Shown here in pieces: positions 3,323-44,509 of a stretch of 64,000 bases of DNA (the first letter of the stretch is position 1; each line of letters starts with the position of its first letter). The notes under the pieces are model-generated. The model worked only from the letters and a program-made list of their open reading frames with translations. It did no database searches and was not told the origin of the DNA. Origin of the DNA: Thermoplasmata archaeon (lineage in GTDB: Archaea; Thermoplasmatota; Thermoplasmata; Lutacidiplasmatales; UBA184); assembly GCA_035656275.1 (NCBI GenBank), contig DASRSW010000062.1:986-64985 (forward strand), given 5' to 3'. The translations under genes were made by a program, and so were the position numbers.

Positions 3323-3346
3323 GTTCGAACTCGCCGACGAGCTCGG
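3323..3346 (-). other. tRNA 3'-end-like remnant (T-arm plus CCTTGTCAGG), putative att scar
   Basis: Minus-sense GCGAG-TTCGAAC-CTTGT-CAGGCGG. No matching 5' acceptor half found nearby. Confidence 0.35.
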
Positions 3347-5415: not shown

Positions 5416-7107
5416 CTACGGGAAGAGGCCGGTGTCGGGAAGCGGATCAACTTGAATGGGTATGGCTCCGCCATAGGTCACCCGTGGAGTCGGATTGTCT
5501 CTGGACCCCGAATCAGGCTTGGAAACTGTCGAGTCGTTCGCCTTAAACACCCTATGGTAACGCAGCATCGCCTCATTCGCAGACTGAGCTCTACCGAGGT
5601 CCGTATACACCTCGATTAGCGCGGGCAATAGGACGAAGCCTTCCAGCGCCATGTAGTTCGCCTGAAGAATCCTGTCAGCTTCCTCCAAGTATGGTAGGGC
5701 TTGTGTGGGCATGCCAGCCACACGGTAAAGATTGCCGAGAAGGCTAGATAGTCGAGCCCTGATCGCCGGAGGTAGTACTGTTCGATATCGTTCTAGTAGG
5801 TCTTCGATAACCAGGATGCCCTCTGCGGCGCCATCCGGCTCTTCAAGGATGCAGTTGGCGTACAGCAGTTTGCATTGGGCTTCTAGCATCGGACTCGGAT
5901 TGTTCAGGAGGTCCAACAATTGTACTGCTGTTGCGCTGTACAGGAACATCCTGGCTCGCATCTGTTGCACACGGCGAGTTACATCGAAGGGGGTTGAAGT
6001 CTCTGTGGAGCCAAGTTGCACCTGTCGGATTGTCGCGATTCTTCGTCCCACGGCAACCGCCGCAATGTAGTTTGTAATCAGCCTGTCCTCGACAGATTCT
6101 GCTGTCAAACTCATGCGGCTAAGATCAGCGGAGGGGATTTCTACCATGGACTTGCCGGAGTCGAAGGTACCCCACCAGGCCGCCTCTGTTAGGTTGAGGC
6201 GTATCACCGTCTGGCAGAACTGACGGGCGTTCGATAGGTGATACTGCAGCTTGTTGAGCTTTAGTCGGGGACTGGCTTGATGGACCGCTTTAGGACGGAC
6301 GAAGTCCTCCGTGATGGAGAGTCTTGCCAGAAGTTTGGCCAGGAGCGCTCTCGTATCGCACTTGACAGCGGTTCCGTGTAGTGATCCCTTCAAGTCGCTC
6401 CTGAGAACTGCGTTCAGGTCCTCGACCTGGAACCCCGGCCCTGCCTCCTGGTGATTGACCAATATCAGTCTGCTATCAGTCGGACCGATGTCTCTGAGAG
6501 TTGGGTTAATGTCGAAGTAGTCAGAAAAGCTGTAACCAAGTACTAGCACGAGCCCATGCCCATCTTTTGCTAGGAGCTCTTCTAGACTTGAGCGGAGCTC
6601 CGGCCTGGCCTGATTACGAACAAGCTCCTCTGACGTGGCCTTAACGGAAGCGGGGTCAGAGGCTCGCCCGTGAAGATGGTCAACGTCCAGCCTGAACTCC
6701 TCAGTGGGGTCCAATCGAAACCGGCCCGACCGGCTAAGAGAATTGGCCGCTTTCTCCACAAGTTCATCAAAGTTTGTCGTCACTACCCGTCTGGTGCAGC
6801 CCGCCGACATAATCGCGGCGATGGCGTAGTGCTCGAACGTTGGCTCCGCCGATGAAAATACATCCAGCAGTTCGCCGTAGAAAGAACCACCAAGTGATCC
6901 GATTATCACCTCAAGCGGGAGCTGTCTCACTCGAGGAGGAATCGGGTCGAGCCACAGCGCCGACAAAATTGAATTCGAGATGCTGAGAGCACCAGGGATT
7001 CCCGATGGTATCGAGACTCCCGCACCTAACCATAATGCTAGCTCGCCGCGTCTCGCGGAGCCAGCCAGAATCTCGATGATACCGTCAACAGAGTCCGGAG
7101 TCGTCAT
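5416..7107 (-). CDS. SIR2-like (SIR2_2 / DHS-like NAD-binding) domain protein fused to a C-terminal TPR-like helical-repeat domain
   Basis: N-terminal motifs LWLGAGVSIPSGIP, VVTTNFDELVEKA, VDHLHG and LVLGYSFSDYFD match the defence-type SIR2_2 signature (GAGxS / TTNYD / LHG / GYSxxD). The C-terminal ~300 aa is a helical repeat. Confidence 0.75.
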   Translation of the reverse strand: MTTPDSVDGIIEILAGSARRGELALWLGAGVSIPSGIPGALSISNSILSALWLDPIPPRVRQLPLEVIIGSLGGSFYGELLDVFSSAEPTFEHYAIAAIMSAGCTRRVVTTNFDELVEKAANSLSRSGRFRLDPTEEFRLDVDHLHGRASDPASVKATSEELVRNQARPELRSSLEELLAKDGHGLVLVLGYSFSDYFDINPTLRDIGPTDSRLILVNHQEAGPGFQVEDLNAVLRSDLKGSLHGTAVKCDTRALLAKLLARLSITEDFVRPKAVHQASPRLKLNKLQYHLSNARQFCQTVIRLNLTEAAWWGTFDSGKSMVEIPSADLSRMSLTAESVEDRLITNYIAAVAVGRRIATIRQVQLGSTETSTPFDVTRRVQQMRARMFLYSATAVQLLDLLNNPSPMLEAQCKLLYANCILEEPDGAAEGILVIEDLLERYRTVLPPAIRARLSSLLGNLYRVAGMPTQALPYLEEADRILQANYMALEGFVLLPALIEVYTDLGRAQSANEAMLRYHRVFKANDSTVSKPDSGSRDNPTPRVTYGGAIPIQVDPLPDTGLFP

Positions 7108-7455
7108 GCTCCTGCCATTGAATTAGAGCGCAAACACTGTTTGAATCTTGGTTGCCCAGGCCCCCACGAGCCGCTTCTGTAATAGCACTCGGCCATTCCA
7201 ACGCCGCCCTCTCAAGCACTCGCGAGCACGATTCGACCGGCGGAAGGTGTTCCCGCCCAGACCCGAGGATCCCGGTGCTTTACCGAGACTAGTGCATCAA
7301 GCCGTCCCAAGCCTGGATGAGGAACCGAACCAGCTCCCTTCCCTGGGCCAGACCCTTGTCCGGTCGCCAACTTCGATGCCGAGTGCGAGTTCTCGTGATA
7401 TAACAGTCCTGGGGGGTTGAGATAGACCGACTTGAGGCAATCCGCCTAGCGCTTC

Positions 7456-9321: not shown

Positions 9322-10359
9322 TCAGTCGGAGGTAGGAGCTGGATGAAAGCCTCGTAGTACGCTCACCATTCTTTCGATAGCCTCAATCGAGCGATAGACG
9401 GCGGGAATCTCGAATCTCCTCTGACTCTTGTGGATGATGTTATTCCTGATGTTGTAGACTTTCTCGACATCCGCAATCAGCTGGCTTACATCAGACCGCG
9501 CTTCAAGTACTTCGATAATGAACCTGGTGAGTCCGATTAGTGGAATGTTCCTGATGATCTCCTCGGCGTGGGTTCGCCTTTGCTCCTCCACTCCGCTCTC
9601 GGTTCCGAATCTAGACGCGAGATAGGCTTCGATCTCGGCTTCTAGCGCTATCACCAGCTCGATGTAGACCAGGTCGTATTCCCTAGTCACGTAGTGAATT
9701 CTGCATCTGGCGAGGTAGTTTCGTCTAAGCTGCGTGCGTCCGTCGTAGTCGATTGTCAGGATTCTGAATCTCTCAAGCTCTGCCCGACCAGCCGGCCAGT
9801 CAGCGGTGTAGCACAAGTCTAGGTAGACGATTGCTTCAGGGGGAGTTGTCTCGAGAATGAAGCGAATCTTGCGTAACGTCGGTAATGGGCCTAGGTCCGC
9901 ACTCTTCACGCGATAGGAGGTCTCCCAGTACCCTTCGGAGGCGGTATCGTCGATGGCGGCCGCGAGCCTTTCTTCCAGATTCGTTGTATCAAGGCGACCC
10001 GCCGAGGCCAATCCCAATTCGTAGTCGGAGTAGTCGAGCACTGCCAGTTCGACGGACTCGACCGGGATCCCCGCCGCTTCCGAAATCCACTTGTCAAGAT
10101 TCTGACGGGTCAGCCCGAGACCGTCTAGGCGGACAATGGCGGTACCCACCGTAGTCTCGTACCAACAGTCGAGTCCGTCATGCTCGCGAGACGGAGCGAA
10201 CGCCGCAGAATCGGGATTCGGCCGGCGAGAATCTAAGTCTATTTTCCGATCTGCAGGTCGGAATAGACAGCTCAGGGCGTGGTCGTCAGTCTCCGGGACC
10301 GCGTTTCGCCATTTCAACGCCGCTGAATCGCCTATCCAGAGAGTCGACCAATCCGCCAT
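9322..10359 (-). CDS. Hypothetical protein with C-terminal HEPN-like module (RNxxxH motif IRNNIIH)
   Basis: Helical C-terminal ~110 aa carries R-N-x3-H about 45 residues from the C-terminus. The N-terminal ~230 aa is an unknown domain. Confidence 0.6.
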   Translation of the reverse strand: MADWSTLWIGDSAALKWRNAVPETDDHALSCLFRPADRKIDLDSRRPNPDSAAFAPSREHDGLDCWYETTVGTAIVRLDGLGLTRQNLDKWISEAAGIPVESVELAVLDYSDYELGLASAGRLDTTNLEERLAAAIDDTASEGYWETSYRVKSADLGPLPTLRKIRFILETTPPEAIVYLDLCYTADWPAGRAELERFRILTIDYDGRTQLRRNYLARCRIHYVTREYDLVYIELVIALEAEIEAYLASRFGTESGVEEQRRTHAEEIIRNIPLIGLTRFIIEVLEARSDVSQLIADVEKVYNIRNNIIHKSQRRFEIPAVYRSIEAIERMVSVLRGFHPAPTSD

Positions 10360-10617
10360 CGCCGGGACAAAGGGCGCCGTCCCAAAGCGATTGTCTTGTA
10401 CCAGGTCCGGTGGGGCCTATTGACACGCGACTCGACCTACCTCGCCCGGCTCCGTGCGTCAATGCGCTGTTGCGAGGTCCCCTCTCAGACCCGTTTTGAG
10501 AAAGAGTGGCCCATCACATGCCGTCTCCGCCCGGGCTTCTCGCACCTCGGCCGTTACGGGCTCGACACGGTGTGCGGGCCGAGCGCACCATCCGAAAGGT
10601 GGCTTCAGGCGGCGCGA

Positions 10618-11583
10618 TCAAATCGTCTCTTCCCTCCCACCCGAAAGCTCCCGGGCACGGCCTACCAAGAGCAATCGCACTAGCGCCCGGAGGTACCCAT
10701 ATCCGTTATTCAACTCGTCTGGGCTCTTCGCGTCCCACTCGTCATGCACGACCCTGTTTCGGGTCTCCCCCAGGGCCTCCAACTTTTGGACCTCGACATC
10801 ATTCAAGCCGAGCCTCCGGGCGGCTTCCATCCGCTGGGCCTCGTGCTCGTTTGTAAGGCAGACTACGGCCTTCCACAAGAGGACCATCGCGAGCGCCCCC
10901 GCGTATCCAAAGCCCTTCTGGACCTGAACCATGCTCTCGCGCTCCTCTCGTGCCGCGTTGATTCCGGCCTCATACACCCAAATCGCCCGCTTGTAGAATA
11001 GCAGTGCAGAACTGAGGGCGCTGTCCGCCGCTGTGGCCCACTCTGCTCCTTCGCGAAAGTCAGAGGCGAGCCGCGTCGTGTTCCAGCCGGCAAACGAGTG
11101 AGTCATCATCTCGGAAGTTCCGACCGTTCCGCCGGCCTCAGTCCAAGCACGTTGATACTTCGCCTTGAAAACCACGTTCGTCCCCAGCCCAGCGGTAACC
11201 TCCAGGTCCCGAACAGCTTCAGTGGTGAGGTCAATCGCGCCCCAGAGATCGTTCCCCATAACAGTGAGGGACACAACCAAGATGTTGTCCTTGAGAGAGT
11301 ACTGGTAACCCTTGAGGGGGAACGTGATGTCAATCGCCTCCTCTGGCGACCTGCTCCGCGGCGTAGTTTCGCCGTCAGGCTGTAGCAGGGTGGTTCCATC
11401 CGGAAGTCCGAACTGCGTCCGAGGTTCGAGTTCGAACTCGACGAATGCTCGCGTGGGGACTGGAGGTGGCCCGAACCACTTCCTACGCGCTTCCTCATCC
11501 ATGCGACCCAACAGGTCCTCCTTCTCAAGAAAGCTCCCAGAGCTCGACGGTCTGATCGGTCGGGTCCTCCCCCTGGGCCGCAA
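10618..11583 (-). CDS. Hypothetical protein with C-terminal HEPN-like module (RNxxxH motif TRNRVVH). Divergent tandem neighbour of 9322-10359.
   Basis: Same layout (unknown N-terminal domain plus helical C-terminus with R-N-x3-H about 50 residues from the end). The N-terminus is unrelated to its neighbour. Confidence 0.6.
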   Translation of the reverse strand: MRPRGRTRPIRPSSSGSFLEKEDLLGRMDEEARRKWFGPPPVPTRAFVEFELEPRTQFGLPDGTTLLQPDGETTPRSRSPEEAIDITFPLKGYQYSLKDNILVVSLTVMGNDLWGAIDLTTEAVRDLEVTAGLGTNVVFKAKYQRAWTEAGGTVGTSEMMTHSFAGWNTTRLASDFREGAEWATAADSALSSALLFYKRAIWVYEAGINAAREERESMVQVQKGFGYAGALAMVLLWKAVVCLTNEHEAQRMEAARRLGLNDVEVQKLEALGETRNRVVHDEWDAKSPDELNNGYGYLRALVRLLLVGRARELSGGREETI

Positions 11584-15000: not shown

Positions 15001-15870
15001 CTAACACCAACCGGAAAGCATGCGATGGCAGTCCCAAGGAAGGTAGTTCCGAAAGGCGATAGGGAGAGGCTGCTCGAGTGAGCAGTCGAGTGAACCCAGA
15101 GCCGACCCGTGGCGGGCGAGGAGGTTCCGTGTCTCGCGGGGTTCTTGAGCGACCCGGTTCCTCCGGACAGTCTTGGTGATACGACCGTTCTTGATCTTGT
15201 GGTCCACGTCGCACCGCTCCGCGATCCACGGATCGTGGGTCACGATGATGGTGGTCGTTGCCGATTCGCGAGCCGCCCGGAGGAGATATTCCAGCACGTT
15301 CGACCGTGCGCTGGGATCGAGATTGCCTGTGGGCTCATCGGCCAGGATGAGTGCAGGACGCTTGGCGATGGCGCGGGCGATTCCCGCCCTCTGCTGTTCG
15401 CCACCGCTCATATGCCCGGGGCGATGTTCGGCCCGTTTAGCCATCCCTACTGCGCGGAGCGCCTCCATGGCACGCTCCCGCCGTTCCCTCTTCGAGACGT
15501 CCAGCGGCTCCAGCGCAGCCGCCACGTTCTCCCGAGCCGACAGCCAAGGGAAAAGATAGTACGATTGGAAGATGAACCCCACCGTGTGCGCACGGTAGTC
15601 GACCAACTCCCGATCCGACATCTCGGTCAGTTCACGGCCGTCGACCGAGATGGAACCAGAGTCCGGCCGATCGAGGCCGCCAATCAGACTCAGCAGGGTT
15701 GTCTTCCCGCTGCCGCTGTCGCCTCGAATGGCCACGACCGCTCCCTTCGGCACGCGCAGACTGATCCCCGTCAATGCATCGACTTCGGCAGTCTTTCGAG
15801 TCGCCCGATAGCGGCGGCACACGTTCCGCACAACGACCATGTCGCCGCTGTCTCCTTCGAGTTCACTCAT
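15001..15870 (-). CDS. ABC transporter ATP-binding protein (MacB/LolD-like)
   Basis: Walker A GDSGSGKTT. ABC signature LSGGEQQR. Walker B ILADEPTGNLD. Confidence 0.85.
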   Translation of the reverse strand: MSELEGDSGDMVVVRNVCRRYRATRKTAEVDALTGISLRVPKGAVVAIRGDSGSGKTTLLSLIGGLDRPDSGSISVDGRELTEMSDRELVDYRAHTVGFIFQSYYLFPWLSARENVAAALEPLDVSKRERRERAMEALRAVGMAKRAEHRPGHMSGGEQQRAGIARAIAKRPALILADEPTGNLDPSARSNVLEYLLRAARESATTTIIVTHDPWIAERCDVDHKIKNGRITKTVRRNRVAQEPRETRNLLARHGSALGSLDCSLEQPLPIAFRNYLPWDCHRMLSGWC

Positions 15871-17092
15871 CGCGAAGCGCCTCCGTAGGCGGCAGGCGAA
15901 GCGCCCGAATGCTCGGATAAATAGCCCCGAGGACGCCGAAGAGAAGGGTCACCGCCAGCCCGACCAAGAGTAGGTCCGTCGTGAGAACTATCTGAACGCC
16001 ATTCAACAGTTGGCCGCCAGCGTATCCCCCGGCCGCGCCGCCCACCGCCCACTCAGCCACTGCGGGGCCCAGGAGGAGGGCCAAGCCGAACGCGGCGGGG
16101 AGTCCGAGAAGTGCTACCAGAAACGACTCCAGTGAAACTTGGGCCAGGATTCTGGAATTGCGGTGGCCCAACGCTTTCATGAGTCCGAATTCTCGGGTCC
16201 GACGCGAGGTGACGACAACCATGGTCGTGACGACCACAAGCGCGCCCCCGACCAGTGCGACATACTGGGCGGTTTCGGAACTGGCGAGGATCGACGATAC
16301 GGCTCCCCGAAGCGCCTCATGATTGGCGTTGGCGAGGCTCTGGACGTTGTAGCCGCTGCCGAGGGAGTGCTGCAGGCTTGAGACGACCGAGGAGACTTGC
16401 GCCTTCGGCGTGAGGTAGGCGTACACGATTGTGGCGTTCGTAGTGCCGAGCGCCGACGTTCCGCTGGGGAACGGTGCGATGACGGTTTCTCCGCCCTCGG
16501 CACAAGTCGGCGCGTTAAAGATGCCGACCACGGTGAATGTCGCACCGTTCAGGCTGAGCGGACTCCCCGCCCGTAAGCCATTGTCGGAGGCGTATTCTGA
16601 CCCGACTACGGCCGCGCTTCCCTGCTCGTCACCGTACGACAGGGTACGTCCGGCGTTCATTGTGAGGGTGGTCGCGCCTCCCAATCCCGCCAACAGGAGG
16701 AAAACCGGGCCAGTCGTATCGATGGCCTGAACGTTCGGATCGCTGCTGGACCCGCATATCGGGTTAGAGGGGTTCAGAAATTCGGGCTGCCAGGTGATGC
16801 GCTGGACCGATGCTACCGTCGATAGCTGATCGATTTCCTGTACCGTGCCCGGCGTAACTCCAGCCCCAATCGAGAAATTGAACGTCCCCCCGCCGAACGA
16901 GTTACCCGCCAACTGAACTGTCACAATGTTCTGAACCGAACTGACGGCCTGCCCGGCCCCGGAGACCACGGCGGCGTTTACTTGGCTCAGAACAAGGAAC
17001 ACCCCGAGCGTAAGCGCGACGACGACAAGGACGCCGATGCTCCGGACAGGGTGGCGACTTACGGTCGAACCTACCCTCGAGAGAAGGCTCAC
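15863..17092 (-). CDS. ABC transporter permease, FtsX/MacB family, with a large extracytoplasmic domain
   Basis: N-terminal TM, a long Ser/Gly/Thr-rich extracellular domain, three C-terminal TM helices with FtsX-like MKALGHRNSRIL. An 8-nt overlap with the ATPase gene indicates an operon. Confidence 0.8.
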   Translation of the reverse strand: MSLLSRVGSTVSRHPVRSIGVLVVVALTLGVFLVLSQVNAAVVSGAGQAVSSVQNIVTVQLAGNSFGGGTFNFSIGAGVTPGTVQEIDQLSTVASVQRITWQPEFLNPSNPICGSSSDPNVQAIDTTGPVFLLLAGLGGATTLTMNAGRTLSYGDEQGSAAVVGSEYASDNGLRAGSPLSLNGATFTVVGIFNAPTCAEGGETVIAPFPSGTSALGTTNATIVYAYLTPKAQVSSVVSSLQHSLGSGYNVQSLANANHEALRGAVSSILASSETAQYVALVGGALVVVTTMVVVTSRRTREFGLMKALGHRNSRILAQVSLESFLVALLGLPAAFGLALLLGPAVAEWAVGGAAGGYAGGQLLNGVQIVLTTDLLLVGLAVTLLFGVLGAIYPSIRALRLPPTEALRDE

Positions 17093-23650: not shown

Positions 23651-25378
23651 TCAGTCTGGGGCCTCAGACCCTGGTTCACTAAGGCTCGGAATCAACGCGT
23701 CGGCCGAGCTTGCGCCTCGTCGAAGGAACTTCTTCACGTAGCTTGGAGGCGGATCAATCATCAGATCTTCATAGGGATCAAAGTTCAGAAGTCGATCGGC
23801 CTCAGCAAGACACTGCTTCTGATATCCTACGTCGCTCCCGATTATCGAAACTCGAACCTGTTTCCGTTCACCGACTTCCCATCGAGCTTGATCTCGTATG
23901 AGGAAGGCCCTGAGCATGTCGAACTCATCGGTGGGGAGCGTAGTCTGAAGTCGAAGTCGCTCAGACCTCCAGTCGAGATAATCGACGAGCTCCGAGGATG
24001 GGATCTTGTCGAGCAGGTAATTGAAATCGAAGACGTTGATGATCAACGGCCTCGTCAGTCCTTGGAGTGCCTTTCCAATTGTCCCTTTCATCGTGCATTG
24101 AAGGGGAATAGCCGGAAAGTAGGCCTCGAGAACAATGAGATTCCCGAATATGTTAGCCGAGTCGAGTCCCTCCTCGCAGGCGTGCGCCTGCTCAGCGGCG
24201 TGCAGAATCGTGCTTTCGACGTCGCGGTAGAATCCGAGGTAAGTTCCCCAGCGACCCGCGGGCGATAGGGGGCGGGCTTTGCATTGGACAAAAAAGCGGC
24301 CACCGCTTGGGAGCACCATGACGAGATCGATTTCTGGAGACCGCGGGTTCGAGCGAACATCGTTGTGAACCATGACTTCAGGCCAGGACCGCTTGATTCG
24401 GCCTGCGACGACTCGCTCAAAGGACTTGCCAATAGTCGACCCGTAGTAACCTAGTTCTCGCGAGTCGAGACGTTCGGCCAACCCCCAATGAATAGCTGAC
24501 GGAAGTTCGCGATCGAGGATGTGGGTGTCGAGCAACTGAACCCCTCCGTCTCGTCTCTTGAGAAATGTCCAGCGGCTGATCGACGGAAAGGGCTCTGCGA
24601 GAGCGTTCAGGTCTGTCGCCAGGAAGAATGGAACCGCTGGATTCAGTCCGATGAGTGGAAGTCGGTCGAGCTTATCCTTCGAAAGGGTGATTGCATCCAC
24701 TATCATTTCGAGGAACACGGCGGGAGGAAGCAGGACTCGGCCCGCGTACTTGTGCGGGTGCCGGCCGTACCATCGCATCTGAGCCATCTCCTTACGAAAC
24801 CCGGACACGGCCGGCGTTCCGCGATGGACCATCCACCATGCAAACCGACAGGCGTCCTCCGAGGTGAACCCAAGGTGCTTGACCAACAGCTGGTCTGATG
24901 TCCAAAACTTCTCCATCACATAGACCACGCATTCACCCAGAGTCGGACCTCCCTCCACCAATTCGGCCAGACTTTGAAGGGCAAAGGCAGCCGAACCCGA
25001 TTCCGAGTGTTCCGGCTCCAGGTCGATGGGCTCCAAGGGGTTCAATCCAGGGCCTTCGCCGAACGCCTCGTAAAGGCCCTGCAAGACCTCACGAGTCTTG
25101 ACCAGAGTCGCCCGCTCTCTCCCGCTCCCAGAGCTGCGTTCCAGTGTTCGACGGACTGCAAGGTGGGTCGGGAGGAGCTGTCCTGGCATTTCACCGTTCC
25201 AGAGATGGATCGCTGCCTCAGCAGCCAGGAGCTCCTCAACGTCGAGCTGACTGATCCGCGCTGTGAGAGCCTCTGGTTGACTGACTTGGGCTCCATGGTG
25301 CGCGTCTCGTCTGGCGTGCCTCATCCTCAGGACATTGGGTCCTGCGCCATAAGAGTACAATAGGAGAGGACAGGTCAC
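23651..25378 (-). CDS. Hypothetical protein with a NERD-like / PD-(D/E)xK-like nuclease motif
   Basis: The segment EIDLVMVLPSGGRFFVQCK matches the NERD pattern (E-I-D-hhhh ... G-hF-V-h-E/Q-x-K). Confidence 0.55.
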   Translation of the reverse strand: MTCPLLLYSYGAGPNVLRMRHARRDAHHGAQVSQPEALTARISQLDVEELLAAEAAIHLWNGEMPGQLLPTHLAVRRTLERSSGSGRERATLVKTREVLQGLYEAFGEGPGLNPLEPIDLEPEHSESGSAAFALQSLAELVEGGPTLGECVVYVMEKFWTSDQLLVKHLGFTSEDACRFAWWMVHRGTPAVSGFRKEMAQMRWYGRHPHKYAGRVLLPPAVFLEMIVDAITLSKDKLDRLPLIGLNPAVPFFLATDLNALAEPFPSISRWTFLKRRDGGVQLLDTHILDRELPSAIHWGLAERLDSRELGYYGSTIGKSFERVVAGRIKRSWPEVMVHNDVRSNPRSPEIDLVMVLPSGGRFFVQCKARPLSPAGRWGTYLGFYRDVESTILHAAEQAHACEEGLDSANIFGNLIVLEAYFPAIPLQCTMKGTIGKALQGLTRPLIINVFDFNYLLDKIPSSELVDYLDWRSERLRLQTTLPTDEFDMLRAFLIRDQARWEVGERKQVRVSIIGSDVGYQKQCLAEADRLLNFDPYEDLMIDPPPSYVKKFLRRGASSADALIPSLSEPGSEAPD

Positions 25379-30318: not shown

Positions 30319-31350
30319 CTACGTGACGGAATACTGCCGCCGCCAGTCACATTCCGCCGCTTGACACGACCCGGCGTTTCGGACCCAAGTCCTGGGTTTC
30401 AACCCGGCGTATCGGGCACGGGTCAGTTCTCCGCGGGGCGTCCAGTCATCGTCAAGGGGGTTCCGGCGCCGGTGGCGAGGTCCTCGCCCCGGGGGGAGTG
30501 GGTCCCAGCGGTCCGGGGGAGACTTGATCCCGCCAATCGCGGGAGAGTCGGTCGAAGGTGGGTCGCCCGGCCTCGGGTAGAGGTCTGGAACGTACTTGAA
30601 TCCAAACCCGATATCGACGCCCGCTTCTGCCGGCGCCCGTCTACCGATTGCGTTGGCGAGGTCGACAAGGGCGTTGACCTTCTTCGCGAATGCGTCCCAC
30701 TCATCGGCAAGGTAGTTCGGCAGGAGACCGATACCCGCACTCCGCCTGGCGTTCACGAAGTTCTGCGCACTGAGGGGTGAACGAGAGAAGTCGACCCCGA
30801 AGAGCCGGGCGGTGTAGAAGAACTCGTACGTGTCGAAATAGGCAGCCTCCCGGATGCGCCAGTCAAGGAGTCCCTTGAGCTGCGTCGCATAGGCGGCGCC
30901 GTTCGACCACGCCGTCAATTGAGCATGCGCCCGGGTTCCGGAGTCGCGCTGGGGCTGATTCCGTGGTGAGCCGCTCCTTTGACTTTCTTGGAGCCAGCTC
31001 TGCATGAGGCGATTGCCGACGGAGAGGAACTCCCGACCGGACCTGAACAGTCTTTCGTACTCGTTGAAGGCAGACGCAAGTTCGTCAACGAGGGCGCGAT
31101 GCCTTCGAATGTGCCGGCGGATGACCCACTCGCCGTACCACTCGAACGATCGCTGCCAGAAGCCGAGGTAAACGAACGACACGAACGCAAAGAGAACCAC
31201 AACGAGGCCCAGTGCCCAAAGCCGTTCGCCCGCTGCAGGGGCTATTACACCGATCTGGAGTGCGGCCGCGAGAACGACGGCGGTGAGGATGATGAGAAAC
31301 GCTTCCCGGTGGGCAAGTGGCCGGGCGTCGGTATCGGTAGTGGCGGCCAT
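30319..31350 (-). CDS. Hypothetical membrane protein (2 N-terminal TM plus a soluble domain)
   Basis: ORF. The N-terminus is hydrophobic and the C-terminal tail is possibly read-through. Confidence 0.45.
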   Translation of the reverse strand: MAATTDTDARPLAHREAFLIILTAVVLAAALQIGVIAPAAGERLWALGLVVVLFAFVSFVYLGFWQRSFEWYGEWVIRRHIRRHRALVDELASAFNEYERLFRSGREFLSVGNRLMQSWLQESQRSGSPRNQPQRDSGTRAHAQLTAWSNGAAYATQLKGLLDWRIREAAYFDTYEFFYTARLFGVDFSRSPLSAQNFVNARRSAGIGLLPNYLADEWDAFAKKVNALVDLANAIGRRAPAEAGVDIGFGFKYVPDLYPRPGDPPSTDSPAIGGIKSPPDRWDPLPPGRGPRHRRRNPLDDDWTPRGELTRARYAGLKPRTWVRNAGSCQAAECDWRRQYSVT

Positions 31351-37880: not shown

Positions 37881-38546
37881 TCAGAGGAAACCACCAATAA
37901 GAGTTGCCACTTTCGCGACTAGAGCGAGGCAGCCCCCGACCGCAGATGAAGCCTTCACCGCTTCCCACGCAACCTTCACGATGCCCCTCGTTGGTTCAGG
38001 CTTGGCTAGCTGCGATTGAATCGTTTCGATGTCTGCGACAGCTGCCATCTTGTCAAGTTCTGGTGCATTTGACGCCGTGACCGCGTTGCGCAACTCGGCC
38101 AACGCTTGTCCCAGGTCGGCAAACTTGGAATTGACCTGATTACCGTCACCAACCGTTATCACGTTCTGTCCTGTCGCTTCTATTCTTATGCCGTGAAACT
38201 TGGCGGGCGTGAATTCGCCAGGACCTTCAATCTTGTCGATTCCAGCAGCCGTGATCTTGTAGAAACTTGTAGTTGAGGGGATAAGGGTTCCACCGGGCGC
38301 TGGGAATGACTTCTCTATCTTGTCCTCTTCCACCCATCCTTGACTGATAAGGTAGGTAAGGTTGCTCTGAACCTCCTGCTGAGTAAGATTGTTAGATGCC
38401 TTCAATTCACTCTTAACATCGCTGATCCTGACTGCCGATCCCCTCTTCCCCCGAGCGCTAGTCGCGTACTTGTTGCGTTCGTAGAAGTACTGAAGCATGA
38501 GGCGACGAATCTCGTTATTCGTTGGAGGAACACGGACGGTCTTCAT
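37881..38546 (-). CDS. Hypothetical protein (221 aa). Noticeably lower GC. Divergent from the kinase-AdSS gene.
   Basis: ORF. K/N/S-rich composition unlike the rest of the replicon. Confidence 0.55.
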   Translation of the reverse strand: MKTVRVPPTNNEIRRLMLQYFYERNKYATSARGKRGSAVRISDVKSELKASNNLTQQEVQSNLTYLISQGWVEEDKIEKSFPAPGGTLIPSTTSFYKITAAGIDKIEGPGEFTPAKFHGIRIEATGQNVITVGDGNQVNSKFADLGQALAELRNAVTASNAPELDKMAAVADIETIQSQLAKPEPTRGIVKVAWEAVKASSAVGGCLALVAKVATLIGGFL

Positions 38547-38671: not shown

Positions 38672-40303
38672 GTGGGGACAGGGTTTACCGAAACGGCACA
38701 CATGGGCGATCGAATCGTCATGCTCTCAGGTGCAATTGGTTCGGGTAAGTCCCTCCTCGGGAGGTCCCTAGCCGCTAGCGAGGGGGCCCGAGTATTCCGT
38801 ACGCGGGATGTGCTGAGACGACTCGTCCCTTCGGAGAGCGCGGATGACAGAAAGGCGCTCCAATCGGTTGGAGACCGACTGGACTTCGAGACAGAGCACC
38901 TGTGGGTCCTGCAGGAGTTCCATCAGTGGCTCGCTGGCCAAAGCGCTTCCAGAATGTCCGTTGTGGACTCGGTCCGTACCCTCGGCCAGGTAATGGCCTT
39001 TCGAGAGGAGTACGGGGCACGGGTGACCCGTGTCCACCTTTCGGCCCCTGTCGTCGAACTCGAGAGCAGGTACGCCCAACGCGCCCAGCCCAGTTCGGGC
39101 CGCGCGTACTCCTTTGCCGAGGCGCGGGCGAACGCCACCGAGCAGCAGATTGAGGCACTTGGGAACGTCGCAGACCTGGTCGTCGACACAAAGCGCTGCA
39201 CGCCGGCAGATGTCCTGATTCGTACACAGAGTCACTTCGGCGTGCGCCCCTCCGCGGGGCGTGGCTACGTTGACGTAGTGATCGGGGGACAGTATGGCAG
39301 CGAAGGGAAAGGTCAGATAGTCGATTTCATTTCGGAAGAGTACGACCTCCTAGTTCGGGTCGGCGGACCCAACGCCGGTCACTCGGTCTATCGAACACCG
39401 AGGCCCTACGTTCATCACCACCTTCCCTCAGGCACGCTCCGCGGATCGGCACGCCTTCTCATCGGACCTGGGGCCGTTCTGGGTGTTCAGACGCTCCTCA
39501 AGGAGATACGCGAGTGCGGGGTTGAGCAATCCAGGTTGACCATCGACGGAGGCGCTATGACGATCTCCGCGGACGACCTCACAGCCGAAAAGGGGCTCGT
39601 CGCGTCTATCGGGTCAACTGGTCAAGGTGTCGGGGCCGCGACTTCACGCCGAATCATGGGTCGTGGAACCGGGATCAAGCTGGCACGCGATGTGCCCGAC
39701 TTGGCCCAGTTCATCGGGAATGCGCTCGACGTGCTTCGGGAGACTTTCGCCTCTGGCGGGCGCGTCCTCCTCGAGGGTACCCAAGGGACCGGTTTGAGCC
39801 TATTTCATGGAAGCTACCCACATGTAACCTCGAGGGACACCACGGTCATGGGTTGCCTCTCCGAGGCCGGAATCCCACCGTCCCGAGTTCGGAGGATCGT
39901 AATGGTCTGCAGAACCTATCCAATTCGGGTTGAGAGCCCGGAGGCCGGCAGTTCAGGCCCCCTGCGTGAAATCTCTTACCAGGAGCTTGCCTCGCGCTCG
40001 CATATCGACGAAGCTGAGCTACTTGCAACCGAAAAGACTTCAACGACCCGGCGACAGCGACGCCTTGGGGAGTTTGAGTGGGACAATCTCCAACGAGCCG
40101 CGTTCTTGAACGCCCCGACCGACCTAGCGATAACGTTCGCCGACTACATCGACAAAGGCAATCGCGAAGCACACCGGTTCGAGCAGCTTTCTGAAGAGAC
40201 TATCAACTTCATCCAAGAGGTCGAGAGGGTTACTGGCGTCCCGGCCTCTCTGGTCGCGACTGGGTTCGGCGAGCGCAGTGTCATCGACCGACGGGCCTGG
40301 TAG
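38672..40303 (+). CDS. Fusion protein: N-terminal P-loop kinase-like domain plus C-terminal adenylosuccinate synthetase (PurA)-family domain with altered catalytic residues
   Basis: Walker A [14 protein letters not shown] in the first ~180 aa. The C-terminal ~360 aa aligns by eye to PurA: [19 protein letters not shown] vs [30 protein letters not shown] vs [23 protein letters not shown] vs [37 protein letters not shown] vs [39 protein letters not shown] vs TTGRRRRTGWLD. Asp13 becomes Ser and Lys18 becomes Gln. Confidence 0.8.
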   Translation: [543 protein letters not shown]

Positions 40304-40309
40304 GATATC

Positions 40310-40984
40310 GTGCGCGAGCCTGCCCTCTTCTCCCTATATCCGACCCTCTTCCACATGGCAGAGGACGGCAGTTGGCCAAGCATTCAGGAACGGGGTCTGC
40401 TCAGCACCACCGCCCTCCTCGACGCATACGGTGTGCAAGGGCCACAGCGAGTCGCAATAGAGTCTGCCTGGCGGCCCAAGAAGGTTGTTCTCAGACGTAG
40501 AGCGCTCCCAGACGCGGTGATTCGGGATCAGATCCCATTGCGGCCCGATCTGCTCGAACCCTGTCTCGTGGGCGGAGTTACGGTCCGGGAGTGGTACAGG
40601 TTGATCAACGGACGGGTGTTCTTTTGGCCAGATCGGAGGCGGCTGCAGTGGTTTCTCTCAGCCAAGGAGTACCGCGGCGAGCCACACATCGTCTTGACCA
40701 TGGACACTCGCTCGGTAGTCCAGCGACACCGGGAGAAGATTACGCTCTCCCAAATCAACTCGGGAAGCGCGTATCCCTCCAAAAGCACCGGGGTCGCTCC
40801 TAAGCGCGGTCCCTCGACCTTTCAACCCATCGCCGAATACCCCTTCCAGTATGCGGCTGAGCTCGTAGTAGAGGGCGGTATCCCTCAGGTCAACGGTCTG
40901 GTCCGTTCCGTTGAGCGCTGGGTTGCTCACAAGTCCGGAGACGAGGAGGCTATCTACGAACTCTTGGAAAGAATCTGGCCCTAA
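40310..40984 (+). CDS. Hypothetical protein (224 aa), starts 7 nt after the kinase-AdSS-like gene
   Basis: Tight operonic spacing. No recognised domain. Confidence 0.55.
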   Translation: MREPALFSLYPTLFHMAEDGSWPSIQERGLLSTTALLDAYGVQGPQRVAIESAWRPKKVVLRRRALPDAVIRDQIPLRPDLLEPCLVGGVTVREWYRLINGRVFFWPDRRRLQWFLSAKEYRGEPHIVLTMDTRSVVQRHREKITLSQINSGSAYPSKSTGVAPKRGPSTFQPIAEYPFQYAAELVVEGGIPQVNGLVRSVERWVAHKSGDEEAIYELLERIWP

Positions 40985-41847
40985 CTCGCAGCCTTGAACC
41001 CAAGGCCCCGTCGGCCGGCGCTGGCCAGGTCTTCATCGCGGTCGAACAGAGCAGCCCCCAAGTCGGGCTGCCCGATTCGGCAAGGGACCCCGCGACCGCA
41101 GAGCCGGTATGCCTCAACTGTCATCATGGCACCCCACATCTGCCCAATCCGCAGTCCTCTTTCCAACAAGCCCAAAGCATGCCTTGGCTGGGGAAGCAGC
41201 ACGAATACGACGTGGGACGTTCGAAAGGCAAACATCCATTCGGCGGCGCCCAGCGCCCCCAAGCGAGCCGCGAGGCGCGTTACAAAAGCGTCGCGGGGCG
41301 TGCGCGGGAAGTGCTGATACAAGAGTACCGAGTGGTCCTGGTCCAGAGCACGGCTAACTTCCACTTCGAATAGGTACTTCGACGATCGCGGCTTCCCCCG
41401 GCCCACTGACTTGACGGCGAGCCCATTGTCAGGATCAAAGAAGACGAGGTCGGATCCGTCGGAGAGCTCGAAGAAGCGGTCGAAGTACTCGTTCCGGCCA
41501 TCGGAGTCATCAACGAGATGGTCGTCGAAAAACTGGCAGTTCGACAAGATTCCCGCCTCGTGGATGGCACGCACCTCGCGTACGCCTCGGTCGATCACCT
41601 GGTGTCTGAGGAATCCGTAGACTACCGGGTCGTAGCCGCCCCAGGCATTGGGGTCAAATAGGTACGACGTGCGACTTCCATCACGACCTGTGTCGTCCGG
41701 AGTCAACGCCCAACACACGGTCGCGGCAAGTCGACCCCGCCCGGTCAGAGCCCGTATGAGGCTGTACTTCCGGTAGTCATTGAGGTCCCCGAAGTACTGG
41801 TTCTTCATCTCAAAGAACACCCCCCTTGGCATTTCGAACCAATGCAC
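40981..41847 (-). CDS. Hypothetical protein (288 aa), convergent with 40310-40984
   Basis: ORF with protein-like composition. Contains FFDPDNG...YLFEVEVS segment. Confidence 0.5.
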   Translation of the reverse strand: MHWFEMPRGVFFEMKNQYFGDLNDYRKYSLIRALTGRGRLAATVCWALTPDDTGRDGSRTSYLFDPNAWGGYDPVVYGFLRHQVIDRGVREVRAIHEAGILSNCQFFDDHLVDDSDGRNEYFDRFFELSDGSDLVFFDPDNGLAVKSVGRGKPRSSKYLFEVEVSRALDQDHSVLLYQHFPRTPRDAFVTRLAARLGALGAAEWMFAFRTSHVVFVLLPQPRHALGLLERGLRIGQMWGAMMTVEAYRLCGRGVPCRIGQPDLGAALFDRDEDLASAGRRGLGFKAAS

Positions 41848-42908: not shown

Positions 42909-44393
42909 TCAGTGCAGTCGGCCGTCGTTGTCCGTCCGAGGGATCGGAGTGGGCCTTAGGATTGCACGGTTGGGTCCCAGTTGGGCCACGAACTCATAAC
43001 CCGACCCGATGAAGCGCTCCGCCTCGGCGAGGGAGACCACTCGCTGAGTCGAGGGAGGGCTGGGGGTGGCAGCCGGGGTCTGGAAAGGTAGTTCCTCGTT
43101 CGTGGCGGTGGTGCGTTGACCAGACCGCTTCCCGGGCTCTCCTCGGCTCTTCTCCTGCTCCGCCAGCATCTTCGCGAGGAACTCGATCGCCTCGGGCTCG
43201 CGGAGTAGCGCCGCCAAGCGCTCCTCCGCGCTCCGAGCTTCCTCGATTTGCTTCACGGCTGGAAGGGAGAGGGGGCCTCCGCAGGTCATGCAATACACTG
43301 CGCCGGGCGGGTTGACCGTCTTACAACGACCGCATCTGGACGGAGCCCGGCTAGGCTCCGGATTCTCCCTCGGGTCTGGCACTTTCACCCCGTAGCGTGC
43401 ATTCAGTGCACCGATCACATCCTTCCCACTCAAGTGGACGTAGTGCCGGGCGACGTCGCTCCCGGGAACCCACCCTGCTACCTTCTCGAGAATGGAGGTC
43501 GAGATTGCTGGGTCCTTAGCGAGTATAGTCAGCCGGGATCGGCGCAGCGCGTAGGCCGTCACCGGCTTCTTTATGCCCGCCCGCAGTGCGGCGGTCTCGA
43601 GCGCCTTGTACATCGCGCGATACGTGGCCGGCCTTCCCGACCGTTCCCCGCCCAAGTCGACCCAGAGAGGGGAGGAGGTGTCTTCCCGAGCCGGATGAGC
43701 GTTCAGCCAGGCCAGCAGCGCCGGGACCGCATCCTCGTAAACCGGGGCCGGCTCCGGGGCGGACCCTTTCTCCCGACTGACTCTGAGCTCGATGTATCCC
43801 TCGTCGTGAGGAACTACATCGCAAATCCGAAGTCGGTAGATCTCGCCAGGTCGGCAGCCGGAATTGAATAGTGTCCAGATCCAGGCCTTGTCACGGAAGT
43901 TCAGCGCCGCGTCAGCGATCCGAGCGACGTCCTCACGGGAGAGCATGTCCGATGGACCAGCCACGGGTTTCCATTTCTCCAGGCGGATTCGGAGCCAAGA
44001 AGGGTACTCCCTTCCCTGGCGGGCGAACCACCATCGCCAGAACGTTCCCAAGCAGTTCGTACCGGTCGCCCGTGTAGCTCGGGCGTAGACGCCCGGAGGA
44101 AAGGCCGCTGTGAATGCAGCCGGGGTCTCCTTGTCGGGGGAGAGGAAACGTGAGCCCAGCCGGGACGCTGCCAAAGGCAGCCAGGTTAGGAATGTCCGGA
44201 TCCGGACCTCGCTGACCTCGGGCCGGCGGGCCGAGACAAAAGCGAGAATCGCGTCCCGTTCAGATCGCTCGAGGTCGAGGACCGTGCCGACGGGTCCCCC
44301 CCCACCCAACTGAGCGAGACGTTTCTCGACGTAGCCAGACACGAGGTGGACGTCCCCGAACGGATCTTCGCGAAGTCGCTTCCGGCCCGCCAT
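42909..44393 (-). CDS. Tyrosine recombinase/integrase with C-terminal zinc-ribbon (CGRC...CMTCGG) extension
   Basis: Catalytic-domain residues ALRRSRLTILAK, ARHYVHLSG. Located 43 nt from the tRNA-Thr 3' end. Confidence 0.85.
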   Translation of the reverse strand: MAGRKRLREDPFGDVHLVSGYVEKRLAQLGGGGPVGTVLDLERSERDAILAFVSARRPEVSEVRIRTFLTWLPLAASRLGSRFLSPDKETPAAFTAAFPPGVYARATRATGTNCLGTFWRWWFARQGREYPSWLRIRLEKWKPVAGPSDMLSREDVARIADAALNFRDKAWIWTLFNSGCRPGEIYRLRICDVVPHDEGYIELRVSREKGSAPEPAPVYEDAVPALLAWLNAHPAREDTSSPLWVDLGGERSGRPATYRAMYKALETAALRAGIKKPVTAYALRRSRLTILAKDPAISTSILEKVAGWVPGSDVARHYVHLSGKDVIGALNARYGVKVPDPRENPEPSRAPSRCGRCKTVNPPGAVYCMTCGGPLSLPAVKQIEEARSAEERLAALLREPEAIEFLAKMLAEQEKSRGEPGKRSGQRTTATNEELPFQTPAATPSPPSTQRVVSLAEAERFIGSGYEFVAQLGPNRAILRPTPIPRTDNDGRLH

Positions 44394-44436: not shown

Positions 44437-44509
44437 AGCCGCGGGAGGGGTTTGAACCCTCGACCTGCTCCTTACCAAGGAGCCGCTCTGCCAGCTGAGC
44501 CACCGCGGC
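44437..44509 (-). tRNA. tRNA-Thr (anticodon GGU)
   Basis: Hand-folded cloverleaf. Acceptor GCCGCGG/CCGCGGC. D-stem GCTC/GAGC. Anticodon stem GCTCC/GGAGC with loop TTGGTAA. T-stem GAGGG/CCCTC with loop TTCAAAC. 73 nt, no encoded CCA. Confidence 0.85.

What the first reader, a model, noticed from the sequence alone, without database searches (positions are those of the whole stretch)
38672..40984. P-loop kinase fused to a divergent adenylosuccinate-synthetase (PurA/PurZ-family) domain with Asp13-to-Ser and Lys18-to-Gln changes, operonic with an unknown 224-aa protein, in the integrase-proximal island
The C-terminal ~360 aa of the 543-aa protein aligns block-for-block with PurA: the P-loop GDEGKGK region, [18 protein letters not shown], the [18 protein letters not shown] loop and the TTGRRRR loop. 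The general-base Asp of GDEGKGK is Ser here and the second Lys is Gln (GSEGKGQ). The His of NAGH and the arginine loop are kept. The N-terminus adds an independent Walker-A kinase-like domain (GAIGSGKS). A stand-alone kinase fused to an AdSS fold that has lost its own phosphoryl-transfer base suggests re-wired chemistry, for example phosphorylation in cis by the kinase domain followed by amino-acid ligation onto a purine or other nucleotide. PurA relatives outside purine biosynthesis are known from phage PurZ and Z-genome biosynthesis. This gene sits 3 kb from a tyrosine integrase and tRNA-Thr, in lower-GC DNA, and is followed 7 nt later by an unknown gene. That context fits mobile nucleotide-modification or defence/counter-defence, not housekeeping purA.
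Basis: partly seen in the sequence, partly recalled or inferred. Interest (0 to 1): 0.85.

Follow-up and report, generated by a model that had tools for sequence, protein, structure and literature searches.

The report
Kinase–PurZ-like enzyme with DarT-like partner
A mobile island in a Thermoplasmata archaeon carries a nucleotide kinase fused to an enzyme of the type phages use to make 2-aminoadenine, always paired with a DarT-like ADP-ribosyltransferase; this looks like an untested, widespread conflict module rather than housekeeping purine synthesis.

Summary
ORF 38672-40303 (true start probably ATG 38702, 533 aa) is a P-loop, adenylate-kinase-like domain fused to an adenylosuccinate-synthetase (AdSS) fold carrying GSEGKGQ.

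The interpretation needs revising in three ways.
- Asp13-to-Ser is not a lost base. It is the hallmark of phage PurZ (dGMP to succino-2-amino-dAMP). The domain shares five further PurZ/PurZ0 signatures and groups with them against PurA (99.5% NJ bootstrap).
- The pair is a conserved core. An AdSS-domain gene sits directly upstream of DUF7002 in 45 of 50 DUF7002-seeded loci, across many bacterial phyla and archaea.

Optional partners in related loci are an M78-peptidase/DarG-like macrodomain protein (absent here), an RlmJ-like methyltransferase-fold gene (present here, convergent, 40981-41808) and deoxynucleotide enzymes.

One 2025 survey noted the ART/AdSS neighbourhood ("Lmac_3114") without testing function. 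How the two enzymes are coupled is unknown. I propose a DarTG-like DNA-ADP-ribosylating module whose obligate partner makes 2-aminopurine-type nucleotides.

The parts
38702..40303 (+). Kinase::PurZ-like AdSS fusion gene. The maximal ORF starts at GTG 38672 (543 aa); the probable start is ATG 38702 (533 aa).
   Evidence: Homologues are ~533 aa and align from residue 11.
38702..39256 (+). N-terminal P-loop nucleotide-kinase-like domain. Walker A GSGKS lies at 38738-38752 and Asp99 at 38966-38968.
   Evidence: Pfam AAA_33/AAA_18. A family profile against PDB gives S. solfataricus AdkA-like/UPF0200 proteins 3lw7 and 3h0k as best hits (E 3e-8), followed by adenylate kinases. G25, K26, R60, D99, R102 and R133 are invariant.
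39263..40303 (+). AdSS-fold domain of PurZ type. Features: GSEGKGQ 39296-39316 (Ser210 = E. coli Asp13), NAGH 39371-39382, IGSTGQG 39608-39628, EGTQG 39773-39787, loop insertion [12 protein letters not shown] 39926-39961, TTRRQRR 40043-40063, TFAD 40133-40144 (Asp491 = E. coli Asp333).
40310..40984 (+). DUF7002, a DarT-like ADP-ribosyltransferase-fold protein (224 aa). Motifs: His15 within 40346-40369, FFW 40619-40627, Glu184 within 40853-40870.
40981..41808 (-). RlmJ-like methyltransferase-fold gene (275 aa; the maximal ORF runs to 41847). It is convergent with DUF7002 and overlaps it by 4 nt. It is a recurrent optional partner of the module.
42909..44393 (-). Tyrosine integrase of the island (494 aa).
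   Evidence: Pfam Phage_integrase. Integrases 68-70% identical lie beside the same module in L109 and L046.
44437..44509 (-). tRNA-Thr(GGT), the probable integration site and the island/chromosome boundary.
   Evidence: ARAGORN. GC steps from 0.60 to 0.70 here.

Best explanation
SHOWN. The gene encodes an adenylate-kinase-like nucleotide kinase domain fused to an AdSS-fold domain that carries the active-site signature of phage PurZ/PurZ0, not of PurA. Together with the next gene, a DarT-like ADP-ribosyltransferase (DUF7002), it forms the nearly invariant core of a horizontally mobile module. The module is found in many bacterial phyla and in archaea, usually in islands beside restriction-modification genes, integrases or transposases. 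Relatives add four kinds of partner:
- an M78 peptidase fused to a DarG-like macrodomain (an ADP-ribose eraser or reader), upstream; this is absent here;
- an RlmJ-like methyltransferase-fold protein; this is present here;
- dCTP-deaminase-like, HD 5'-deoxynucleotidase-like or deoxynucleoside-kinase genes.

INFERRED, with rough probabilities.
(a) The AdSS domain uses GTP (Asp491 is kept) to phosphorylate O6 of a 2-amino-6-oxopurine nucleotide, dGMP or GMP. Aspartate then displaces the phosphate to give an N6-succino-2-aminoadenine nucleotide, which is PurZ chemistry (~0.6).
(b) The fused kinase performs a neighbouring nucleotide phosphorylation, NMP to NDP. This is the step that host GMP kinase supplies in the phage pathway (~0.5).
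(c) DUF7002 uses NAD+ to ADP-ribosylate a nucleic-acid base, as DarT does. Where present, the macrodomain protein reverses or senses this (~0.5).
(d) Coupling, the weakest step (~0.3). The two enzymes act together on replicating DNA as a DarTG-like toxin/abortive-infection or addiction module. The ART blocks templates, while the fusion diverts guanine deoxynucleotides into 2-aminopurine-type nucleotides.
For: Domain identities.

Family-wide conservation of catalytic residues in both domains.

PurZ-type signatures shared with four phage PurZ/PurZ0 enzymes (Vibrio VP5, Streptomyces Hiyaa, Microbacterium Theresita, Gordonia Ghobes) and absent from E. coli, alphaproteobacterial and P. horikoshii PurA:
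- Trp11->Tyr/Phe
- Asp13->Ser
- Pro before NAGH
- Thr128->Ser
- GAA instead of GPA
- a loop insertion after Val273
- Gly302->Lys/Arg/Asn/Gln

NJ split {fusion + PurZ/PurZ0} | {PurA}: 99.5% of 200 bootstraps.

Literature: Ser replaces Asp13 in all 147 phage PurZ enzymes, and a few archaeal Ser/Gly sequences sit basal to PurZ (PMC12884076). The PurZ pathway needs host PurB and GMP kinase (bioRxiv 10.1101/2025.10.22.683976).

DUF7002 fold and motifs.

Linkage:
- DUF7002 lies directly downstream of the fusion in 14/14 fusion-seeded genome loci with enough flank.
- An AdSS-domain ORF lies upstream of DUF7002 in 45/50 DUF7002-seeded loci.
- An M78-macrodomain gene is present in 25/34 loci. Its match to NCBIfam antitoxin_DarG has E 1.9e-5.

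Accessory deoxynucleotide enzymes.

Mobile or defence-island context.
Against: - No biochemical data exist for any member.
- There is no PADLOC match for either core protein.
- The AdSS domain scores higher against the archaeal short-AdSS model (269 bits) than against the PurZ model (188 bits), and is below both cut-offs.
- The tree has only one archaeal PurA and used a distance method.
- Five DUF7002 genes occur without the fusion or a macrodomain gene; three of them are one lineage beside dnaE. The ART is therefore not strictly dependent on the fusion's product.
- The window lacks the macrodomain gene, which leaves open what restrains the ART here.
- Only 3 hits in IMG/VR.
Confidence: 0.55

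Rival explanations
1. Antitoxin/sensor model. The kinase::AdSS protein binds the ART and holds it inactive. Its nucleotide sites monitor the (d)GMP/GTP pool, so a virus-induced pool change releases the toxin.
For: The fusion lies upstream of the ART with a 6-nt gap or an overlap, the usual antitoxin-toxin order. It is linked to the ART more strictly (90%) than the macrodomain gene is (74%). The window and L017 have no macrodomain gene, so something else must restrain the ART.
Against: Every catalytic residue of both domains is invariant, which a pure binder or sensor would not need. Orphan ART genes exist without it.
Confidence: 0.2
2. Self-marking DNA-modification model, restriction-modification-like. 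The element replaces or decorates purines in its own DNA using 2-aminoadenine nucleotides from the fusion plus the RlmJ-like methyltransferase. The ART attacks DNA that lacks the mark.
For: The accessory set mirrors the phage Z-cluster: a PurZ-type enzyme, an HD phosphohydrolase, a dUTPase-superfamily enzyme and kinases. An amino-methyltransferase-fold gene is linked in either orientation.
Against: No dedicated polymerase or clear dATPase is present. The accessory genes occur in only a minority of loci. Complete base replacement in a cellular genome is implausible for a 2-4-gene module.
Confidence: 0.12
3. DraT/DraG-like regulation. The ART (writer) and macrodomain (eraser) reversibly ADP-ribosylate the kinase::AdSS enzyme itself. 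That enzyme is the real effector and depletes or corrupts guanine nucleotides.
For: Writer, eraser and enzyme are encoded together. Nucleotide-depleting effectors are common in defence, and weak PADLOC dCTPase and mads_8 (mad8) hits fall on the kinase domain.
Against: The best fold matches are the DNA-targeting DarT proteins. The macrodomain is most like DarG.
Confidence: 0.1
4. First reader's model. The AdSS domain lost its catalytic base, so the fused kinase phosphorylates the purine in cis before amino-acid ligation.
For: Asp13 is Ser, and a kinase is fused.
Against: PurZ enzymes with the same Ser are active on their own. The AdSS P-loop, His237 and the GTP-base Asp491 are invariant. The kinase domain resembles NMP kinases, which phosphorylate phosphates, not lactam oxygens.
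Confidence: 0.05
5. It is the organism's ordinary purA, with a fortuitous N-terminal extension.
For: No second AdSS gene is present in the 64-kb window.
Against: It is below all purA/AdSS cut-offs and has Ser in place of the essential Asp13. It lies in a low-GC integrase island and has a patchy distribution across phyla. L004 has a canonical purA beside its fusion.
Confidence: 0.02

Closest known systems
Phage PurZ / PurZ0 (2-aminoadenine 'Z-genome' biosynthesis)
   Same: AdSS fold. Ser replaces Asp13, Tyr/Phe replaces Trp11, with P-NAGH, GST, the insertion after Val273 and a non-Gly at position 302. It groups with PurZ/PurZ0 against PurA. Like PurZ0 it keeps the Asp of the guanine pocket.
   Different: At most 35% identity and below the NCBIfam PurZ cut-off. 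It is cellular or island-borne, not phage-borne. It is fused to a kinase. Its partner is an ADP-ribosyltransferase rather than DatZ/MazZ/DpoZ. The substrate is untested.
DarTG toxin-antitoxin/defence systems (DarT2-DarG, DarT1-NADAR)
   Same: DUF7002 has the DarT fold with conserved His and Glu. Most relatives encode a DarG-like macrodomain in the same operon. The context is islands and mobile elements.
   Different: No sequence-level DarT match. FFW replaces the motif-II Tyr. In relatives the macrodomain is fused to an M78 peptidase, and it is absent from the window. The kinase::PurZ-like enzyme is the nearly constant partner, which no described DarTG system has.
'Lmac_3114' ART-like family (Legionella ART survey, BMC Genomics 2025, PMC12522546)
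   Same: It is described as a distant DarT homologue with motifs Hxx / FFW / xxE. An AdSS domain is in its neighbourhood in 60% of cases, and in Pseudomonas it occurs with an AAA domain. This matches DUF7002 and locus L009. It is very probably the same family; this is an inference, because no sequence was compared.
   Different: The paper reports the family in bacteria only, does not note the PurZ signature, the fusion, the M78-macrodomain or the RlmJ-like partners, and offers only 'regulating NAD+ availability'. No experiments were done.
Archaeal short adenylosuccinate synthetase (P. horikoshii PurA, PDB 2d7u/5k7x)
   Same: It is the best overall sequence match (E 2e-50) and shares the short architecture lacking the bacterial insertions.
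   Different: That enzyme keeps Asp13, Trp11, GTT and TGRRRR, and is a stand-alone housekeeping enzyme.
RlmJ / DUF519 N6-adenine methyltransferases (for the third gene)
   Different: No sequence-level hit. The catalytic DPPY is replaced by DPDNG. The substrate is unknown.

Membership tests
PurA (adenylosuccinate synthetase, housekeeping) | Catalytic base Asp13 in GDEGKG | tested here: not met
   Ser210 aligns with Asp13 of the real E. coli PurA, and it is invariant in 50 fusions.
PurA (adenylosuccinate synthetase, housekeeping) | Reaches the curated score of TIGR00184 / NF003295 / NF002223 | tested here: not met
   192/395.55, 268.8/368 and 160/402 bits.
PurA (adenylosuccinate synthetase, housekeeping) | The only AdSS of the genome, in a core-genome context | tested here: inconclusive
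   No other AdSS is in the window, but only 64 kb is visible. The gene lies in a low-GC integrase island. Relative L004 has a separate canonical purA.
PurZ / PurZ0 | Asp13 replaced by Ser | tested here: met
   Literature: 100% of 147 phage PurZ enzymes.
PurZ / PurZ0 | Groups with PurZ/PurZ0 rather than PurA in a tree | tested here: met
   NJ, 338 columns, 99.5% of 200 bootstraps. Only one archaeal PurA was included, and the tree is unrooted.
PurZ / PurZ0 | Reaches the NCBIfam NF038379 cut-off | tested here: not met
   187.9 bits against a cut-off of 300.
PurZ / PurZ0 | Phage Z-cluster context (DatZ, MazZ/DutZ, DpoZ) | tested here: not met
   None of these is in the window. Relatives have only analogous HD, dCTP-deaminase-like and kinase genes. 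No phage carries the fusion.
PurZ / PurZ0 | dGMP + Asp -> succino-2-amino-dAMP activity | not testable with these tools
   Needs an enzyme assay.
DarT (PF14487) ADP-ribosyltransferases | Sequence-level family match | tested here: not met
   Only DUF7002 is hit in Pfam, even at E<=10. A family profile finds no DarT in PDB.
DarT (PF14487) ADP-ribosyltransferases | DarT-type ART fold with conserved His (motif I) and Glu (motif III) | tested here: met
DarT (PF14487) ADP-ribosyltransferases | Cognate ADP-ribose-removing antitoxin (DarG macrodomain or NADAR) in the operon | tested here: not met
   Absent from the window. Present as an M78-macrodomain fusion in 25/34 related loci.
DarT (PF14487) ADP-ribosyltransferases | NAD+-dependent ADP-ribosylation of ssDNA bases | not testable with these tools
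   Needs biochemistry.
Lmac_3114 ART-like family (PMC12522546) | Motifs Hxx / FFW / xxE and an AdSS-domain neighbour | tested here: met
   A direct sequence comparison was not possible, because no supplementary file is held.
Known anti-phage defence systems (PADLOC 2.0) | Model match for the core proteins | tested here: not met
   No significant hit. There are only weak dCTPase (E 0.008) and mads_8 (E 0.0046) hits, both on the kinase domain of the fusion.

The most novel reading that the evidence does not exclude
Cells and their mobile elements, not only phages, run a PurZ-type pathway that makes 2-aminoadenine-type (Z or succino-Z) deoxynucleotides. This pathway is mechanistically coupled to DarT-like ADP-ribosylation of DNA, either as an immune system or as a self/non-self marking system. 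Phage PurZ would then have been recruited from this cellular conflict module.
Probability: 0.2. Interest if true: 0.9.

Novelty: new variant of a known kind. Interest (0 to 1): 0.66.

Why it matters
PurZ chemistry has been treated as a phage invention derived from archaeal PurA. A large cellular family with the same active-site signature would bear on two fields.
- Origin of Z-genomes. The family is fused to a nucleotide kinase, locked to a DarT-like ADP-ribosyltransferase, and spread across bacteria and archaea on islands. It gives a concrete candidate for where PurZ came from.
- DarTG biology. It points to an unexplored link between purine-nucleotide editing and nucleic-acid ADP-ribosylation.

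The proposal is directly testable with two recombinant proteins. If the module is a defence or addiction system, it adds a new enzymatic logic to DarTG-type systems and to archaeal immunity.

Tried and rejected
- PADLOC: no real hit for the fusion, DUF7002 or the third gene.
- Literature: no paper contains 'DUF7002'. Searches for AdSS with defence terms, and for PurA-like/PurZ-like terms, gave nothing beyond the Legionella survey and the Z-genome papers.
- Sequence searches of DUF7002 against PDB, as a single sequence and as a profile, found nothing meaningful. Only the fold search worked.
- An M78-macrodomain homologue in the window: none.
- The far att site of the island, searched as a repeat of the tRNA-Thr region of at least 14 nt: none in the window. 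The island extends beyond it or the repeat is shorter.
- The look-up of encoding contigs for the window's own DUF7002 protein: not on record.
- The window ORFs upstream (221, 506, 379 and 481 aa) are not conserved next to the module elsewhere. They were rejected as parts.
- A 470-aa convergent gene recurrent in an M78-less subclade has no Pfam, NCBIfam or PDB match. It was left unexplained.
- Most recurrent neighbour clusters were antisense shadow ORFs inside the conserved genes and were discarded.
- Supplementary files of PMC12522546 are not held, so Lmac_3114 could not be compared directly.
- No structure was predicted for the fusion.
Full report
**Observation**

Pfam places AAA_33/AAA_18 on residues 16-146 and Adenylsucc_synt on residues ~202-541 (E 3e-53). 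NCBIfam gives archaeal short AdSS NF003295 at 269 bits (cut-off 368), purA TIGR00184 at 192 (cut-off 395.55) and PurZ NF038379 at 188 (cut-off 300). The protein therefore has the AdSS fold but is a curated member of none of these families.

Alignment with the authentic E. coli PurA confirms Asp13->Ser210 and Lys18->Gln215.

The fusion is not an artefact. More than 120 full-length homologues of ~533 aa at 54-86% identity were returned. In an alignment of 50 of them the following are invariant:
- GSEGKGQ, NAGH, IGST, EGTQG, T458/T459/R463/R464 and D491 in the AdSS domain;
- Walker-A G25/K26 and D99 in the kinase domain.

The 224-aa protein is 100% identical to a hypothetical protein of a Thermoplasmata archaeon MAG. 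The host is therefore an archaeon.

**Context in the window**

GC is 0.60 from position 1 to ~44.4 kb and 0.70 beyond. A tyrosine integrase (42909-44393, -) abuts tRNA-Thr (44437-44509, -). No repeat of the tRNA region marks the far end of the island inside the window.

**What the AdSS domain is**

The closest solved structures are the short P. horikoshii PurA (E 2e-50), then phage PurZ (E ~1e-33), then E. coli PurA (E 1e-30).

Asp13->Ser is not a defect. In a 2026 survey Ser occupies this site in 100% of 147 phage PurZ sequences, Asp13 is 99% conserved in the PurA group, and four archaeal Ser/Gly sequences sit basal to PurZ (PMC12884076).

I aligned 14 fusion domains with:
- four phage PurZ/PurZ0 enzymes (Vibrio VP5, Streptomyces Hiyaa, Microbacterium Theresita, Gordonia Ghobes);
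- a bacterial-type PurA carried by an Acinetobacter phage;
- P. horikoshii PurA;
- an alphaproteobacterial PurA (L004);
- E. coli PurA.

The fusion shares the following features with PurZ/PurZ0 and not with any PurA:
- Trp11->Tyr/Phe and Asp13->Ser;
- Pro before NAGH;
- Thr128->Ser;
- G-A-A instead of G-P-A;
- an insertion after the Val273 loop. This is the loop that PMC8342488 links to exclusion of the 2'-OH in PurZ;
- Gly302->Lys/Arg/Asn/Gln.

The fusion keeps Asp491 (E. coli Asp333, guanine recognition), as do PurA and PurZ0. ATP-using PurZ has Asn/Gln there.

An unrooted NJ tree (338 columns) supports the split {fusion + PurZ/PurZ0} | {all PurA} in 99.5% of 200 bootstraps. Two caveats apply: only one archaeal PurA was included, and a distance method was used.

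The residues that bind the nucleotide 5'-phosphate and base are conserved: N234, T316, R331, Q371 and T386. The substrate is therefore a mononucleotide.

My inference is PurZ-type chemistry on dGMP or GMP, with GTP and aspartate.

**The kinase domain**

A family profile finds the S. solfataricus AdkA-like/UPF0200 proteins (3lw7 and 3h0k, E 3e-8), then adenylate kinases and phosphomevalonate kinase. Walker A, Asp99 and several Arg residues are invariant.

This is an NMP-kinase-like small-molecule kinase. In the phage Z pathway the step after PurZ/PurB is a GMP-kinase step supplied by the host. A fused NMP kinase fits that position; this is an inference.

**The partner gene**

The 224-aa protein is Pfam DUF7002 (E 7e-59). 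No paper in the library contains that name.

Conservation in the alignment: His15 in 59/60, FFW104-106 in 69/69 and Glu184 in 68/68, plus invariant Arg55, Arg72 and Arg166.

A 2025 survey of Legionella ARTs describes a family 'Lmac_3114' (PMC12522546). It is a distant DarT homologue with motifs Hxx/FFW/xxE. An AdSS domain is nearby in 60% of cases, and in Pseudomonas it occurs with an AAA domain and NUDIX. The survey reports it from bacteria only, and no function was tested. This is very probably the same family, so the ART/AdSS neighbourhood is already in print, though only as a bioinformatic remark.

**Linkage**

In 16 genome loci seeded with the fusion, DUF7002 lies directly downstream in all 14 with enough flank. 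These loci come from Dehalococcoidia, Phycisphaerae, Bathyarchaeia, Alpha- and Gammaproteobacteria, Pseudomonas, Longimicrobium, Acidobacteriota and others.

In 83 loci seeded independently with DUF7002:
- 45 of the 50 loci with at least 1.1 kb upstream have an AdSS-domain ORF ending at the DUF7002 start;
- five are orphans, three of them one lineage beside dnaE;
- only three loci come from IMG/VR.

No phage in INPHARED carries the fusion. All 219 phage hits are PurZ/PurA-like at 35% identity or less.

**Additional, optional components**

1. *M78 peptidase-macrodomain protein.* A ~460-aa gene lies immediately upstream on the same strand in 25 of 34 loci with enough flank.
   - Its N-terminus is a Peptidase_M78 domain with HExxH.
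   - Its C-terminus is a macrodomain: Pfam Macro E 0.004, NCBIfam antitoxin_DarG E 1.9e-5.
   - It has no homologue in the window and none in the Thermoplasmataceae locus L017.

2. *RlmJ-like gene.* The window ORF 40981-41808 (-) is convergent with DUF7002 and overlaps it by 4 nt.
   - It is 44-51% identical to the gene next to DUF7002 in L017, L018, L026, L028, L031, L041, L046 and L109, on either strand.
   - It is adjacent to DUF7002 in 14 of 52 loci.
   - The contigs of its closest homologues match those of the fusion and DUF7002 homologues.
   - DPDNG stands in place of the catalytic DPPY.
   - No Pfam, NCBIfam or PDB sequence hit was found.

3. *Deoxynucleotide enzymes, each in a minority of loci.*
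   - dCTP-deaminase-like genes in six loci.
   - A weakly matching HD YfbR-like 5'-deoxynucleotidase in seven loci.
   - A deoxynucleoside-kinase gene in L010 and an extra stand-alone kinase in L009.

Together these resemble the toolkit of phage Z-clusters, namely PurZ plus an HD DatZ plus a dUTPase-like DutZ.

**Genomic setting elsewhere**

- L017: beside an MjaI-type restriction enzyme and a methyltransferase.
- L108: beside DUF1156/DUF499 genes.
- L111: beside a transposase.
- L109: the layout M78-macro, fusion, DUF7002, RlmJ-like (-), HTH, integrase mirrors the window. The integrases of L109 and L046 are 68-70% identical to the window's.
- L004: a canonical purA (585 bits) lies 3 kb from its fusion.

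This is the pattern of a mobile conflict module, not of purine biosynthesis.

**How it most likely works**

Shown: the identities of the parts, their conservation, and their linkage.

Inferred:
- The ART uses NAD+ to ADP-ribosylate a nucleic-acid base, as DarT does.
- The macrodomain protein, where present, erases or senses the mark.
- The fusion converts a guanine (deoxy)nucleotide into an N6-succino-2-aminoadenine nucleotide and carries out an adjacent NMP->NDP step.

The coupling is the weak point. I favour a DarTG-like toxin/abortive-infection or addiction module in which both enzymes hit replicating DNA (~0.3). The alternatives are:
- an antitoxin/sensor role for the fusion (~0.2);
- a self-marking, restriction-modification-like scheme (~0.12);
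- DraT/DraG-like regulation of the fusion by ADP-ribosylation (~0.1).

The evidence against strong claims is as follows. No member has been assayed. There is no PADLOC match. DUF7002 resembles DarT only at the level of fold. Orphan ART genes exist. The window lacks a macrodomain gene.

**Novelty and verdict**

The ART/AdSS association has been noted once in the literature. I found none of the following described:
- the PurZ-type signature of the AdSS domain and its tree position next to phage PurZ;
- the obligatory kinase fusion;
- the M78-DarG-like macrodomain partner;
- the RlmJ-like partner;
- the deoxynucleotide accessory genes;
- the occurrence in archaea.

I rate it a new variant of known kinds (DarTG-type ADP-ribosylation modules and PurZ-type synthetases), with interest about 0.66. 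The most novel reading that the evidence does not exclude is a cellular Z-type nucleotide pathway coupled to DNA ADP-ribosylation, which would also be the source of phage PurZ. I put its probability at about 0.2.

Noticed in passing
window 5416-7107 (-): A 563-aa protein with a SIR2_2 domain (E 1e-9). This is a family common in anti-virus systems, and it lies in the same low-GC island.
   Followed up: no
window 37881-38546 (-): A 221-aa ORF divergent from the fusion gene. It has weak PADLOC hits to candidate defence family PDC-M14B (E 1e-5) and no Pfam family. It is not conserved next to the module in other loci.
   Followed up: partly
window 42909-44393 (-); L109 10756-12264; L046 ~6023-7129: The island integrase has a C-terminal zinc-ribbon hit (DZR). 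It is 68-70% identical to integrases beside the same module in two metagenome loci, which is more conserved than the fusion itself (57-58%). The module seems to be cargo of one family of integrative elements.
   Followed up: partly
L051, L059, L087 (DUF7002 at 2852-3496, 5755-6399 and 1965-2609): Orphan DUF7002 genes without the fusion or a macrodomain partner, beside a DNA polymerase III alpha (dnaE) gene. These form one lineage, and how the ART is controlled there is unexplained.
   Followed up: partly
L035, L049, L050, L054, L061, L075, L079 (e.g. L050 6699-8111 -): In a subclade without the M78-macrodomain gene, a conserved ~470-aa convergent gene follows DUF7002 and has no Pfam, NCBIfam or PDB match. 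It is often followed by an HD YfbR-like protein. It may take the place of the macrodomain partner.
   Followed up: partly
L053 5460-6377; L018 11038-11958; L108 10149-11042; L110 8775-9686: The recurrent dCTP-deaminase-like neighbour (~300 aa) has a C-terminal extension with faint SLATT-domain similarity (E 0.006).
   Followed up: no
L095 4212-9763: Two fusion genes lie tail-to-tail around a single DUF7002 gene, and the second fusion has its own M78-macrodomain gene. This suggests two modules, one of which has lost its ART.
   Followed up: no
window 1050-2744 (-), 15001-17092 (-): The island also carries a B12-binding radical-SAM protein and an ABC-transporter/FtsX pair. Several large ORFs (9322-11583, 23651-25378, 30319-31350) have no Pfam match.
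   Followed up: no
The exact fusion protein did not appear in the protein database search although its two neighbours did. Its gene may be called differently or not annotated in the source record.
   Followed up: partly
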